Assembly (NCBI RefSeq): GCF_009914755.1
Contig: NC_060934.1
Length of the DNA stretch: 64,000 nt
Origin: the human T2T-CHM13v2.0 reference genome, Homo sapiens
Direction: 5' to 3' (one strand)
Below are positions 39,677 through 43,416 of the stretch, in pieces. Below the pieces are notes generated by a model, which saw nothing but the letters and a program-made list of their open reading frames with translations, did not search any database and had not been told where the DNA came from. Made by a program: the position numbers and the translations under genes. Position 1 is the first letter of the stretch, and each line of letters starts with the position of its first letter.

Positions 39677-39768
39677 TTTCTTTTCTTTTCTTTCTTTCTT
39701 TCTTTCTTTCTTTCTTTCTTTCTTTCTTTCTTTCTTTCTTTCTTTCTTTCTTTCTTTCTTTTTTTTTT
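39677..39768 (-). repeat. Retrocopy poly(A) tail decayed to A10-(GAAA)17-(GAAAA)n
   Basis: T10 at 39759-39768, (TTTC)17 at 39691-39758, then TTTTC units merging into the TSD. Confidence 0.9.
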
Positions 39769-39798
39769 GAAGCAAAGAAGGAAAAAATCTTGCCAAGC

Positions 39799-39804
39799 TT
39801 TATT
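39799..39804 (-). terminator. Polyadenylation signal AATAAA (PSMD4-derived)
   Basis: tttatt on + strand, 30 nt before the poly(A). Confidence 0.85.
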
Positions 39805-39901
39805 TAGGCTGTAATGATTACAGATAACACACATCTAACCCTATATTCCGTGCTTCCCATGCAGTCCCCTGAGCAGGCTCAGCTACCCTTTCCCTCCAGT
39901 C

Positions 39902-42490
39902 TCACTTCTTGTCTTCCTCCTTCTTGTCCTTCTTGCTGTCCTTGGTGGCCTGGGAGGCCAGGGAGCCCACAGCATTTCGAATGGCTTCATTGTTGGGATC
40001 CACACCTGGGAGGTTCTCTAGGACACTCTGAAGGAACTCAGGGTCTTGCATCACGTCGTAATCATCCTCCTCCTTGGCTGGCTCAGATGTGTCCATGGCT
40101 GAGCTGGCATCAATGTCTGCTGATTCTGCCAGGCCAAACTCTGCTCCCTGCAGGGACATCTGCATGGCACAAACAATCTTCTCTTCCTCAGTCATACTGC
40201 TTAGGTCAGGAAGCCCAGTGTGGCCAAACTCTTGCTGGCTGATGGTCATCTTCAGCAGGGCATCGTCTGAGTCTTCAGTCCCAGTCGTAGCAATCCCGGC
40301 CTCAGCAGCAGAAGCTGCAGCTGCCTGCCGGGCCTCCTCCTCCTGCCGCTGCCGCTGCTCTTCCATAAATACACGAAGGACCAAGGCCAGCTCAGGATCA
40401 GCACTGGGATCTACTCCAAATTCAAAGTCACTGGCACCAAGACCCATCATGGCACCACCTTCACCAGCCAAAATCGGAAAACTGATGAGAGCATCAGCCA
40501 AACTGGGCCCAGGAGGCACTGTCACCAGATGAGAACCGGTTCCATCTTTGCCATTCAACGTGTTTACAAAGGCTGTCAGCTTTTCTGTGTTCACCTCCTC
40601 TTCCCCAAAATTGATAATGTCAACATTTACTTTCTCCTTCTTGAGGCATTTAGCCAGTTTCACCAGATTCTTCTCATTGTCCTCCACCGGGTTTCCCACA
40701 AAGGCAATGATGCGGATCTTGTGATTGTTGCCTTGTCGGTGCTTCAGAGCCAGATGGGCCACGTGGATGCCCATGCAGAAGGTGATCTTGCCCTTGGGTT
40801 GGACAGTATGTAGCTTGGACAGGATACGGCCAGTGTCTGGGGTGAGTGTGGTCAGCACTTCACAGTCATTATCCAGTGTGATAAGGCCCACGTTGTTCTC
40901 AGGGTTGCTGCGGGTCTTTGAATGACAAACTGTGTTGACAGCATCCTGCTGGGCCTGCAGCCGGGTGGGTAAGAAGTCTCCATTCCCCATATACTCACTG
41001 TTGTCCACACTTGTAGTTAGCATTTGCAAAGTCTCTTCAACTAGAGGTGAGAAACTGGGGTCAGGAGTAGGTGAGCCCTCACTGATTTCCTCCAAAGGTG
41101 GAGTCTGAGGTAAAACATCAGGACAACCAAGGTGAACACCTGGCTCCACTTCCGCCTTTGTTGTCACTTGTGCCTTGTGTTCCCCAGAGACCAATGGCTG
41201 GTAAGTAATGCAGGAGTTGCCACTGGAGCCTGCTCGCTGAGAGAAAGATGAGCCAGACCGAAGTTTTTTGGAAGGAGAAGGCTTCAAGGGAATCTTCTTA
41301 AATACCGTGTTGCACATGAAGCGCTGGAACCATTCAGCATAGAAGCCTGGGCGATGCACTGAGACAGTGTCTCCGTCATGTATCAGGGCTTTCCAAGAGT
41401 GCTCCAACTTCTTAACAAACCTGTAAGACTGTAGAATGTCAATGATGCCAATATAAAGCAGAAGCCTTTCCCCTTTACTATTCCGGGCAGGGATGCCACC
41501 CATATGGTCATCGGTCTCCATGGTGCCACCCCGTCGAGCCTCTCCCTGGATGGATTCCATGGCTGTGGAATACAGAGCCTTTTGGGGGGCTGGTCTTCGA
41601 GTATCAACTGAGTATTGTGTTTCGCTGCTTAAGGGCTCTCGTTGTGCATGATCTATATTATGGATTGACATCAAGAGGCTATAATCCATTATCTTGAAGC
41701 TCTGCAGCACCAAACAGTCACGCTGCAGGGTCTTACAGAGAGCGTTGTGCACGTCAGCATCCAAAAAAAGACCATCAGGGATGTCTTGTAAGAAGTCTAG
41801 GTCTTTAAATGTGGGAAGAGGCTTCTCTCGCTCTTTCTGGGAAGCCCGCCGCCTGTAGGTTGAGCCTTTGAGGTCATATTTGATATGCATTTTTACCGAT
41901 CTTGGTAAAAGATTGTTCATCACCACAATCCGAATGTTCTTGCCACCTGTCTGCACACAGTACAGTCCATAGAATTTAGGCAGCAAAGTCCGAGGGTTCT
42001 GGTTGAGGTTTATGTAGTATCCTGGAAGCAGCTTCTGCAGAAACTCCGCTTCTTTATGTCGGACTGTCTTAACAATGAACTCATCGTCGCTGGACACATA
42101 GAACAGGGAACCACTAGCTCCAGAGCTACAGAGTTCAATCAGCGGCTCACTGCAGAGGGAATACAAGTAATCATCGGGCCGGATACCAAATAGCTCCCAG
42201 AAGTAGCGGAAGGCAACAGGTGCATAGGTCTTGAAACGAAAGGCATTGTAGTGATGAGCAGGGGTCAGGTTGCTCCCTTCACTGGGAAAGAAGATACTCT
42301 CCACCATGTGGAAATCTTGCATGAGGACATCACTCTCTGGTTTGGTACTCAGGCTCCCCACAGTGTGGGTAATGCCTAACTGGATGGCACCTTTCAAGGC
42401 TGATGAGGTTGTCCCTCCTGAGGAATCAACACTTCTATGGCCTATTTTCTTGATGGGCATGCCAGAGGCATAAGGCACCTCAGATGCCAT
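39902..42490 (-). CDS. PIPSL: PIP5K1A kinase domain fused to PSMD4/Rpn10 (VWA, UIM1, UIM2, C-terminal region), 862 aa; translation uncertain
   Basis: PIPK motifs (GASGSLF, IVK, DLKGS, MDYSL, IDILQ) then VDNSEY...KKEEDKK of S5a; junction [11 protein letters not shown]. Confidence 0.93.
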
Positions 42491-42594
42491 GGGACTCTTG
42501 ATTCCAGATGCTGAGGACGAGGTACAGGAAGGGACCGCGGGATCAACGGAGAAAAACCGACCGAAGACAACGGCCCGGAGGAGGCCGACGCCAT
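42442..42594 (-). other. Overlapping uORF (50 aa) from the ancestral PIP5K1A start codon
   Basis: gccaagATGG at 42594 gives [15 protein letters not shown] then goes out of frame; 104 nt to the main ATG (one short of 35 codons); stop at 42442-42444. Confidence 0.88.
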
Positions 42595-43416
42595 CTTGGC
42601 AGCCCCCTCCCCCTCAAGGGCCTGGCTCTCTTTCAATCCGGCTCTTCCTCTTCTCGGAATCGAATCTTCCCAATGTCTCTTTATAGAACCCACGTTCTGT
42701 GGGCCCCCTCCCCGCCCCCTCCAGGGCTCCCTCAGACAAGTCGAGCCGGCTGCTGGACCAGCTCAAGTCCACACCATTCGCCTGGCATGGGGGAGAACTC
42801 ACGTCTCGCACCCCCTCCACAAGTTTAACTGCTTTCCACAGGGGATACTTTCCCCTTTCACAGAAGAGTAAGCTTAAGCTGGCTGCTGGGACCTTGCGTC
42901 CAGACCAAGCCACATCTGAAAAAAAAAACGAGGCATGAAAAGTCCCAGAGGAGCAAACGCCCCCTCTCCGTCCTCCCTAGCCACCGCCTGTTAATCGCCC
43001 AACCCGGCCAGGATTTCTTTTCTGAGTAGTGGATCCCATACATCAGAATCATCTGGGGCACTTGTAATTTAATCCAAACTCATGTGCTCCAGTCCCCCCA
43101 ATTTTTATTTAAGTCTGGGGTGAGGGCCCTACAATCTGTGCTTTTAAAAAGTTCCCGTTTTTCTCTGGTATAGAGTTTGAGAATTGCCAGTCTAATAAGC
43201 CTCTGACTGGTGGTGATGGTTGCCAGTCTGATAAGGCCCCACCTCCAACATTGGGGATCATATTTTGATGTGATATTTGGGGGGGGGAATATCAAAACTA
43301 TATCAGAGACTGTTCATTCAGCAAGCACTATAATGCTATTTACCTGCAGCACCTTACACTGTACCTGGCACACAGGAGATGCCCAGTGAATATTTCTGAA
43401 TGGATGAAATGCCTGC

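What the first reader, a model, noticed from the sequence alone, without database searches (positions are those of the whole stretch)
39759..43008. Gene born by retrotransposition of an intergenically spliced read-through mRNA: kinase-ubiquitin receptor chimera (PIPSL)
Seen: one intronless 862-codon ORF joins PIP5K1A (...LQMLTTS) to PSMD4 lacking its first 9 residues (VDNSEY...). The junction is ACTACAAG|TGTGGACAAC at 41010/41009. A single 15-bp TSD pair and a single poly(A) enclose both halves. Established: PIP5K1A and PSMD4 are tandem neighbours, and this hominoid retrogene is described as PIPSL. Inference: the fusion arose by splicing at the RNA level and was fixed in one L1-driven event (exon shuffling without DNA recombination). 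This is the standout system of the window, but not undescribed.
Basis: partly seen in the sequence, partly recalled or inferred. Interest (0 to 1): 0.9.

Follow-up and report, generated by a model that had tools for sequence, protein, structure and literature searches.

The report
PIPSL chimeric retrogene, confirmed and known
This is PIPSL, a well-described ape-specific gene copy made when a spliced read-through RNA of two neighbouring chromosome 1 genes was copied back into chromosome 10; the sequence bears this out, and nothing new was found.

Summary
An intronless 862-codon frame lies at 39902-42490 on the minus strand. It has a PIP5K kinase domain followed by a PSMD4-type VWA domain. The join is at 41010/41009.

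The retrocopy spans 39677-43008. Perfect 15-bp target-site duplications flank it at 39662-39676 and 43009-23. It has a single 3' tail: A10 followed by a (GAAA)n microsatellite.

I mapped it onto the window's own genome. Thirteen PIP5K1A exons and PSMD4 exons 2-10 lie in order on the same strand of contig C1, and all 21 introns are gone. The join is exactly a PIP5K1A GT donor fused to the PSMD4 exon-2 AG acceptor. It skips 19.6 kb holding the last two PIP5K1A exons and PSMD4 exon 1. Ordinary retrocopies of each parent on C6, C7 and C21 keep the normal joints there.

- The frame starts at an internal ATG. The ancestral ATG (42594) is frameshifted by a 1-bp deletion at +45 and now opens a 50-codon overlapping uORF.
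- The insert's 3' end is 39677, not 39759.

The empty site in Old World monkeys could not be tested. The system has been in print since 2006-2007. Novelty: already known.

The parts
43009..43023 (.). 5' target-site duplication (CAGGATTTCTTTTCT on the + strand)
   Evidence: family D6: 15/15 identical to 39662-39676. The last base (43009) also matches the first parental base.
39677..43008 (-). Whole retro-insert: spliced PIP5K1A(13 exons)-PSMD4(exons 2-10) cDNA plus its tail
   Evidence: 22 exon blocks collinear with contig C1. 98 mismatches in 3243 aligned bases and 4 indels.
42595..43008 (-). PIP5K1A 5'UTR-derived part (exon 1, CpG-rich)
   Evidence: 22/414 differences; 27 CpG against 33 in the whole exon-1-derived stretch (499/500 nt, UTR plus first coding bases). 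The C6 and C7 retrocopies start 11 and 41 nt further upstream in the parent.
42442..42594 (-). Ancestral PIP5K1A start codon (42594-42592). It now heads a 50-codon out-of-frame uORF that overlaps the present start. The 1-bp deletion lies near 42550.
   Evidence: translation, stop at 42444-42442. (alignment: base 45 after the ATG is missing). Zhang 2009 (PMC2773790) reports the same +45 deletion.
39902..42490 (-). 862-codon open frame plus stop (2,589 bp)
   Evidence: The size equals the ORF given in Zhang 2009.
41309..42157 (-). PIP5K lipid-kinase domain (residues 112-394)
   Evidence: PF01504, E 6.8e-96; match to zebrafish PIP5K1A structures 4tz7/6cmw, E 3.5e-184.
42410..42420 (-). Site of a 15-nt in-frame loss relative to the spliced parent, between two copies of a 7-nt direct repeat
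   Evidence: The C6 and C7 retrocopies keep these bases.
41009..41010 (-). Chimeric junction: PIP5K1A exon-13 donor joined to PSMD4 exon-2 acceptor (codon AG|T = Ser494)
40697..41008 (-). PSMD4-derived VWA domain (residues 495-598)
   Evidence: PF13519, E 1e-22; ungapped match to residues 10-377 of human RPN10/PSMD4 chains.
40346..40405 (-). UIM1-derived segment with A704V and S708F
   Evidence: No Pfam UIM hit here even at E<=10.
40145..40189 (-). UIM2-derived segment (residues 768-782) with Q771K, A773V and Y774C
   Evidence: PF23625 UIM_2, 15.1 bits, below the cut-off of 21..
39799..39804 (-). PSMD4 polyadenylation signal AATAAA, retained
   Evidence: identical in parent and copy. It lies 30 nt before the tail.
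39677..39768 (-). Tail: A10, then (GAAA)n and (GAAAA)3, a microsatellite grown from the poly(A)
   Evidence: The parental genome continues with unrelated sequence after ...TTCAAA.
39662..39676 (.). 3' target-site duplication
   Evidence: family D6.

Best explanation
The element is PIPSL, an L1-type processed retrocopy.

Shown here: in a hominoid ancestor a transcript started at the PIP5K1A promoter on chromosome 1. The donor of the 13th PIP5K1A exon was spliced to the acceptor of PSMD4 exon 2. This skipped 19.6 kb that holds the last two PIP5K1A exons (including the stop codon), the intergenic spacer and PSMD4 exon 1. Both introns are phase 2, so the frame was kept.

Inferred from the hallmarks: the polyadenylated chimeric mRNA was reverse-transcribed and inserted on chromosome 10 by target-primed reverse transcription. 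This left a 15-bp duplication, one poly(A) tail and no introns.

Present state of the human copy: it carries a 1-bp deletion 45 nt after the ancestral ATG. The long frame can therefore be read only from an internal ATG (42490), behind an overlapping 50-codon uORF. This fits the reported poor translation and the RefSeq label of transcribed pseudogene. Whether the human copy still makes a working protein is not settled.
For: - Intron loss: 22 parental exon blocks lie in order on contig C1 (PIP5K1A 150322315-150366281, PSMD4 150385880-150391195). Every boundary is flanked by AG/GT, and 21 of 21 introns are absent.
- Junction: it equals donor plus acceptor.
- Skipped exons located: a 46-nt PIP5K1A exon and a terminal exon starting with TAA; PSMD4 exon 1 with ATG...GTGTG|gt.
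- Internal controls: 2 of 2 PIP5K1A-only retrocopies (C6, C7) run on into the next PIP5K1A exon at this point. The 1 PSMD4-only retrocopy (C21) runs back into PSMD4 exon 1.
- Insertion hallmarks: 15/15 target-site duplication; a single tail after a retained AATAAA; the nick site on the + strand reads TTTTCT/GA, a T-rich/purine site.
- Divergence from the parents is 3.0% overall, 5.3% and 4.4% in the UTRs, and dS is 0.049 and 0.028. With a recalled rate near 1e-9 per site per year this gives roughly 15-25 million years, which fits a hominoid origin.
- Literature: Zhang 2009 (PMC2773790; abstract, Background and passages read) and Ohshima 2013 (PMC3747384; passages read) describe the same origin. 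They cite Akiva 2006 and Babushok 2007, neither of which I could read.
Against: - No RNA data were examined here, so the read-through transcript itself is known only second-hand.
- In the mature mRNAs both parents have G|T at the relevant exon joints. A 2-nt microhomology for a template switch therefore exists, and the junction sequence alone does not exclude that route.
- The nick site is only a loose match to the recalled TTTT/AA consensus.
- The empty site in Old World monkeys was not checked.
Confidence: 0.95

Rival explanations
1. Template switching. L1 reverse transcriptase first copied a mature PSMD4 mRNA and then jumped onto a separate mature PIP5K1A mRNA, joining them during one insertion event.
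For: One duplication pair and one tail would also be expected under this route. A G|T microhomology exists at the relevant joints of both mature mRNAs.
Against: The switch would have to leave PSMD4 exactly at its exon 1/2 joint and enter PIP5K1A exactly at its exon 13/14 joint. The partner would also have to be the immediately upstream, same-strand neighbour on C1. My rough estimate is well below 1 in 1000 by chance for the positions alone. This is an inference, not a computed test.
Confidence: 0.02
2. Trans-splicing. Two separate pre-mRNAs (PIP5K1A and PSMD4) were joined by the spliceosome, and the product was then retrotransposed.
For: It gives the same donor-acceptor junction. DNA alone cannot separate cis from trans.
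Against: The genes are adjacent and co-oriented. The known part of the PIP5K1A terminal exon ends no earlier than C1:150373022, and PSMD4 exon 1 ends at C1:150378531. That is the standard setting for cis read-through. Skipping the upstream gene's terminal exons and the downstream gene's first exon is the usual pattern of read-through chimeras (recalled).
Confidence: 0.02
3. Two independent retrocopies landed side by side, or the parents were fused at the DNA level.
For: None found.
Against: There is no poly(A), duplication or filler at 41010/41009. A single 15-bp pair flanks the whole insert. All 21 introns are missing. The reading frame is preserved across a phase-2/phase-2 joint.
Confidence: 0.005

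Closest known systems
PIPSL (PIP5K1A and PSMD4-like), human 10q23.33. Described by Akiva et al. 2006 and Babushok et al. 2007 (both recalled or cited second-hand, not read), Zhang et al. 2009 (PMC2773790) and Ohshima 2013 (PMC3747384).
   Same: It is this locus, according to the supplied annotation. The 2,589-bp ORF, the +45 1-bp deletion, the parents, the retroposed origin and the altered UIM1 all match what the papers I read state.
   Different: Nothing of substance. Two small points:
- The Fig. 1 legend of Zhang 2009 gives 60 bp between the old and new start codons. The window shows 104 nt between the two ATGs, and 60 nt from the deletion to the new ATG.
- I did not find the 15-nt in-frame loss near 42415 mentioned in the passages I read. 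The primary papers and supplements were not seen.
Ordinary processed pseudogenes of the same parents in this genome (C6:7854868.., C7:160459459.. for PIP5K1A; C21:34868469-34869987 for PSMD4)
   Same: They are intronless copies of the same mRNAs, and the PIP5K1A copies have similar 5' ends.
   Different: Each copies one gene only and keeps the normal exon joints where PIPSL is chimeric. They are 85-90% identical to PIPSL, against 97% between PIPSL and the parents. Alu-like inserts interrupt the C7 and C21 copies.
Transcription-induced chimeras / read-through (conjoined) genes
   Same: The upstream gene's internal donor is spliced to exon 2 of the downstream same-strand neighbour.
   Different: Here the RNA chimera was fixed in DNA by retroposition. 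Zhang 2009 states that PIPSL is the only such case they found in the human genome.

Membership tests
L1-mediated processed retrocopy | All parental introns precisely removed | tested here: met
   21 of 21 introns absent. Every parental exon boundary is flanked by AG/GT.
L1-mediated processed retrocopy | Poly(A) tail directly after the parental cleavage site, downstream of the parental AATAAA | tested here: met
   AATAAA at 39804-39799 is identical in the parent. The parental match ends at 39766, followed by A10 and a (GAAA)n microsatellite down to 39677.
L1-mediated processed retrocopy | Target-site duplication of about 7-20 bp flanking the whole insert | tested here: met
   15/15 at 39662-39676 and 43009-43023.
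L1-mediated processed retrocopy | L1 endonuclease-type nick site (TTTT/AA-like; consensus recalled) | tested here: inconclusive
   The + strand reads TTTTCT/GA at 43023/43024. It is T-rich then purine, but not the canonical hexamer.
L1-mediated processed retrocopy | Empty orthologous site in outgroup species | not testable with these tools
   No monkey genome is available. Zhang 2009 reports the locus in human, chimp, gorilla, orangutan and gibbon, and no fused retrocopy in rhesus.
Read-through (transcription-induced) chimera | Parents adjacent, same strand, upstream gene supplies the 5' part | tested here: met
   PIP5K1A exons at C1:150322315-150366281 (+) and PSMD4 exons at 150378531..150391195 (+).
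Read-through (transcription-induced) chimera | Junction is a genuine donor joined to a genuine acceptor, skipping the upstream terminal exon(s) and downstream exon 1 | tested here: met
.
Read-through (transcription-induced) chimera | The chimeric RNA is observed in cells | not testable with these tools
   Known only second-hand: Zhang 2009 cites Akiva 2006. Akiva 2006 is not available here.
Functional protein-coding retrogene | Intact frame kept by selection | tested here: inconclusive
   The frame is open for 862 codons. However, P(no stop | 66 random substitutions) = 0.215. There is no frameshifting indel in 2586 nt, against 3 single-base indels in 654 nt outside the frame. dN/dS is 0.38 for the kinase half and 0.93 for the PSMD4 half. 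The ancestral start is lost.
Functional protein-coding retrogene | Protein detected | not testable with these tools
   The literature is mixed. Babushok's westerns were negative according to Zhang 2009. Ohshima 2013 states first evidence of translation. One PIPSL-specific peptide with 1 spectrum match is listed in a table of PMC7320927. That peptide is encoded in this ORF and contains the A540D change.

The most novel reading that the evidence does not exclude
Human PIPSL may still be translated from the internal ATG at 42490, by leaky scanning or reinitiation past the overlapping 50-codon uORF. On this reading the product lacks the N-terminal 35 residues. Its kinase fold keeps its core motifs but carries 21 replacements and a 5-residue loss. 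The recalled Ala and Ser core positions of UIM1 are replaced, and UIM2 is altered. It would then act as a testis ubiquitin-binding protein distinct from both parents rather than as a dead pseudogene.

A lesser, new-looking detail is the 15-nt loss between 7-nt repeats. One of those repeats exists only across a spliced exon joint. The loss could be a reverse-transcriptase slippage scar from the founding event.
Probability: 0.3. Interest if true: 0.4.

Novelty: already known. Interest (0 to 1): 0.2.

Why it matters
PIPSL is the textbook case of domain shuffling done entirely at the RNA level. Two neighbouring genes were spliced together and then written back into DNA by L1, with no DNA recombination. 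Zhang 2009 reports it as the only fused retrocopy they found in the human genome.

This check adds no new biology. It also gives base-exact coordinates in the T2T assembly for the junction, the skipped exons, the duplications, the frameshift and the uORF.

Tried and rejected
- Primary papers: Babushok 2007 (by DOI and PMC1933510) and Akiva 2006 (PMC1356126) are not available here. Their content is cited only through Zhang 2009 and Ohshima 2013. No supplements were opened, so Additional file 3 of Zhang 2009 (hominoid alignments), which would bear on the age of the 15-nt loss, was not seen.
- UIM detection: Pfam at the default threshold found no UIM. At E<=10 only a sub-threshold UIM_2 hit at UIM2 appeared, along with an unrelated weak K_channel_TID hit that I disregard.
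- My first translation of the upstream frame used the wrong start base and was redone.
- The unfiltered BLAST of the other retrocopies against C1 was swamped by Alu matches. Only the exon rows were used.
- An alternative-splice explanation for the 15-nt loss was considered and rejected. No GT donor exists at any split position compatible with the AG acceptor (read), and the two independent retrocopies keep the bases.
- Open frame as proof of selection was rejected as weak on its own (P = 0.215).
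Full report
**Observation**

The minus strand of the window carries an 862-codon open frame at 39902-42490. Its product reads ...LQMLTTS followed by VDNSEY.... Pfam finds a PIP5K domain at residues 112-394 (E 6.8e-96) and a VWA_2 domain at 495-598 (E 1e-22).

Against solved structures:
- Residues 26-404 match zebrafish PIP5K1A (4tz7, E 3.5e-184).
- The best hit is to human RPN10/PSMD4 chains (E 1.2e-223). 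Within that alignment, residues 495-862 align without a gap to PSMD4 residues 10-377. There are 22 amino-acid differences, by my count from the alignment and confirmed.

The junction ACTACAAG|TGTGGACAAC lies at 41010/41009. The 15-nt word CAGGATTTCTTTTCT occurs at 39662-39676 and at 43009-43023. It is the only bracketing repeat of that length among the 15 direct-repeat families in 39500-43200.

The junction has no A-run, filler or second duplication. The 3' end is A10 (39768-39759) followed by (GAAA)n and (GAAAA)3 down to 39677 (period 4, 23.8 copies). The insert is 39677-43008.

**Parents and the junction test**

The window's own genome could be searched. The insert maps in 22 collinear pieces to contig C1, all on the + strand:
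- thirteen PIP5K1A exons, from 150322315 to 150366281;
- nine PSMD4 exons, from 150385880 to 150391195.

After resolving the few-base overlaps, every exon is preceded by AG and followed by GT. The exceptions are the first exon's start and the last exon's end, as expected. So 21 of 21 introns are precisely absent.

The PIP5K1A exon at the junction ends ...ACTACAAG followed by GTTGGT. PSMD4 exon 2 is preceded by ...CTGACAG and begins TGTGGACAAC. The refuting result, a junction inside an exon, was not found.

The skipped 19.6 kb contains three elements:
- a 46-nt PIP5K1A coding exon;
- the PIP5K1A terminal exon, which opens with the TAA stop;
- PSMD4 exon 1, which holds the ATG and ends ...GTGTG before gtgagg.

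Both introns split a codon after its second base, so the fusion codon AG|T (Ser494) keeps the frame.

**Internal controls**

The same search found conventional retrocopies of each parent: PIP5K1A copies on C6 and C7, and a PSMD4 copy on C21.
- Both PIP5K1A copies (2 of 2) run past ...ACAAG into the next PIP5K1A exon.
- The one PSMD4 copy runs upstream of TGTGGAC... into exon 1 with its ATG.

Only the chromosome 10 copy is chimeric. PIPSL's 5' end lies 11 and 41 nt downstream of the 5' ends of the C6 and C7 copies in parental coordinates. This fits a near-full-length mRNA from one cluster of start sites.

**Mechanism**

The following are shown:
- intron loss;
- the donor-acceptor joint;
- adjacency and shared orientation of the parents;
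- one duplication pair and one tail;
- a retained AATAAA (39804-39799) 30 nt before the tail.

L1 target-primed reverse transcription is inferred. The + strand reads TTTTCT/GA at the presumed nick (43023/43024). That is T-rich then purine, but only a loose match to the recalled TTTT/AA consensus.

Three rival routes were considered:
- A template switch between two mature mRNAs is not strictly excluded by the junction letters, because both mRNAs have G|T at the relevant joints. It would need both breakpoints to fall exactly on exon joints, and the partner to be the adjacent upstream gene. I rate it about 0.02.
- Trans-splicing cannot be separated from cis read-through using DNA. I rate it about 0.02.
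- Two separate insertions, or a DNA-level fusion, are contradicted by the sequence.

**State of the human copy**

Against the spliced parents there are 98 mismatches in 3243 aligned bases (3.0%) and four indels. Twenty-five of the 98 are CpG to TpG/CpA changes.

| Region | Differences | Divergence |
|---|---|---|
| 5'UTR | 22/414 | 5.3% |
| Kinase-derived coding part | 37/1481 | 2.5% |
| PSMD4-derived coding part | 29/1105 | 2.6% |
| 3'UTR | 6/136 | 4.4% |

(All.) With a recalled neutral rate near 1e-9 per site per year this suggests roughly 15-25 million years. That fits the approximately 18-20 million years quoted in Zhang 2009 and the 2019 meeting report.

One indel removes base 45 after the ancestral ATG at 42594, exactly as Zhang 2009 reports. 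That ATG now opens a 50-codon frame ending at 42444-42442, which overlaps the present start at 42490. The two ATGs are 104 nt apart. The "60 bps" in the paper's Fig. 1 legend equals the distance from the deletion to the present start.

A second indel is a 15-nt in-frame loss near 42415. It lies between two copies of a 7-nt direct repeat, and the second copy spans the exon 3/4 joint. The C6 and C7 copies retain these bases. No GT donor fits an alternative splice. It is therefore a slippage deletion, either during reverse transcription or later. I could not date it.

**Selection and function**

Pairwise values against the human parents:

| Half | Nonsynonymous | Synonymous | dN/dS |
|---|---|---|---|
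| Kinase-derived | 21 | 16 | 0.38 |
| PSMD4-derived | 22 | 7 | 0.93 |

This is in line with the published excess of replacements in the PSMD4-derived part (Ohshima 2013, Fig. 5 legend).

The replacements include A704V and S708F, which are PSMD4 positions 219 and 223. From memory these are the Ala and Ser of the UIM core, in UIM1. UIM2 carries Q771K, A773V and Y774C. Pfam sees only a sub-threshold UIM_2 match at UIM2 and nothing at UIM1. Ohshima 2013 likewise says UIM1 suffered critical replacements early.

None of the 21 kinase replacements falls in the segments I recall as catalytic. This was judged by eye and not tested further. The literature reports minimal kinase activity but ubiquitin-conjugate binding (citing Babushok 2007, which I could not read).

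The open frame alone is weak evidence of constraint. Random placement of 66 substitutions leaves no stop in 21.5% of 20,000 trials. The absence of any frameshifting indel in 2586 nt, against 3 single-base indels in 654 nt outside the frame, points the same way as Zhang 2009's argument. At least one of those outside indels, the extra T at 42928, sits in a homopolymer run.

Protein evidence is thin:
- Westerns were negative, according to Zhang 2009.
- Ohshima 2013 claims evidence of translation.
- One peptide with one spectrum match is listed in a melanoma proteome table. That peptide is encoded here and carries the PIPSL-specific Asp540.

RefSeq labels the locus a transcribed pseudogene, according to the supplied annotation.

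**Comparison and verdict**

This is PIPSL itself, known since 2006-2007 and studied repeatedly since. My searches listed 6 and 12 papers. I read passages of PMC2773790, PMC3747384, PMC5412300, PMC6419827 and PMC7320927. The two primary papers are not available here.

The corrections concern the 3' boundary, the start of the frame and the number of skipped PIP5K1A exons (two, not one). The empty-site test in Old World monkeys remains undone. Novelty: already known. Interest is low as a discovery, although the system itself is remarkable.

Noticed in passing
window ~42410-42420 (-): PIPSL has a 15-nt in-frame loss relative to the spliced PIP5K1A mRNA. It lies between two copies of a 7-nt direct repeat, and one copy spans the exon 3/4 joint. 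The chr6 and chr7 PIP5K1A retrocopies keep the bases. It is not mentioned in the passages I read.
   Followed up: partly
window 42442-42594 (-): The frameshifted ancestral ATG now heads a 50-codon uORF overlapping the present start codon at 42490. The two ATGs are 104 nt apart, whereas the Fig. 1 legend of Zhang 2009 says 60 bp, which is the distance from the deletion.
   Followed up: yes
window 39222-39676 (-): The RefSeq transcript NR_002319.2 runs 455 nt beyond the retrocopy's own tail and ends at 39222, in sequence that looks like an old MIR-type repeat (family name recalled). I did not look for the polyadenylation signal used.
   Followed up: no
window 39577-39589 and 39411-39423 (-): The word GTTGAGAACCACT occurs twice in the 3' flank in similar contexts. 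This suggests a pair of old interspersed-repeat copies at the insertion site.
   Followed up: no
L009 (C6:7853368-7858400), L010/L015 (C7:160457959-160463270), L006/L011 (C21:34866969-34871487): These are conventional processed pseudogenes of PIP5K1A (C6, C7) and PSMD4 (C21), 85-90% identical to PIPSL. Alu-like insertions interrupt the C7 and C21 copies. All three PIP5K1A-derived copies, PIPSL included, go directly from the 32-nt second exon to the next exon.
   Followed up: partly
L025, L028, L033 (C19:3630188-3640998) and L026 (C9:81066373-81069662): Exon-sized matches of 72-85% identity to the kinase part. They are presumably the intron-containing paralogues of PIP5K1A (names not checked).
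   Followed up: no
window 42511-43009 (-): The exon-1-derived stretch keeps a fairly high CpG content (27 CpG, observed/expected 0.65, against 33 and 0.79 in the parent). Zhang 2009 argues for tissue-dependent methylation of the locus.
   Followed up: partly
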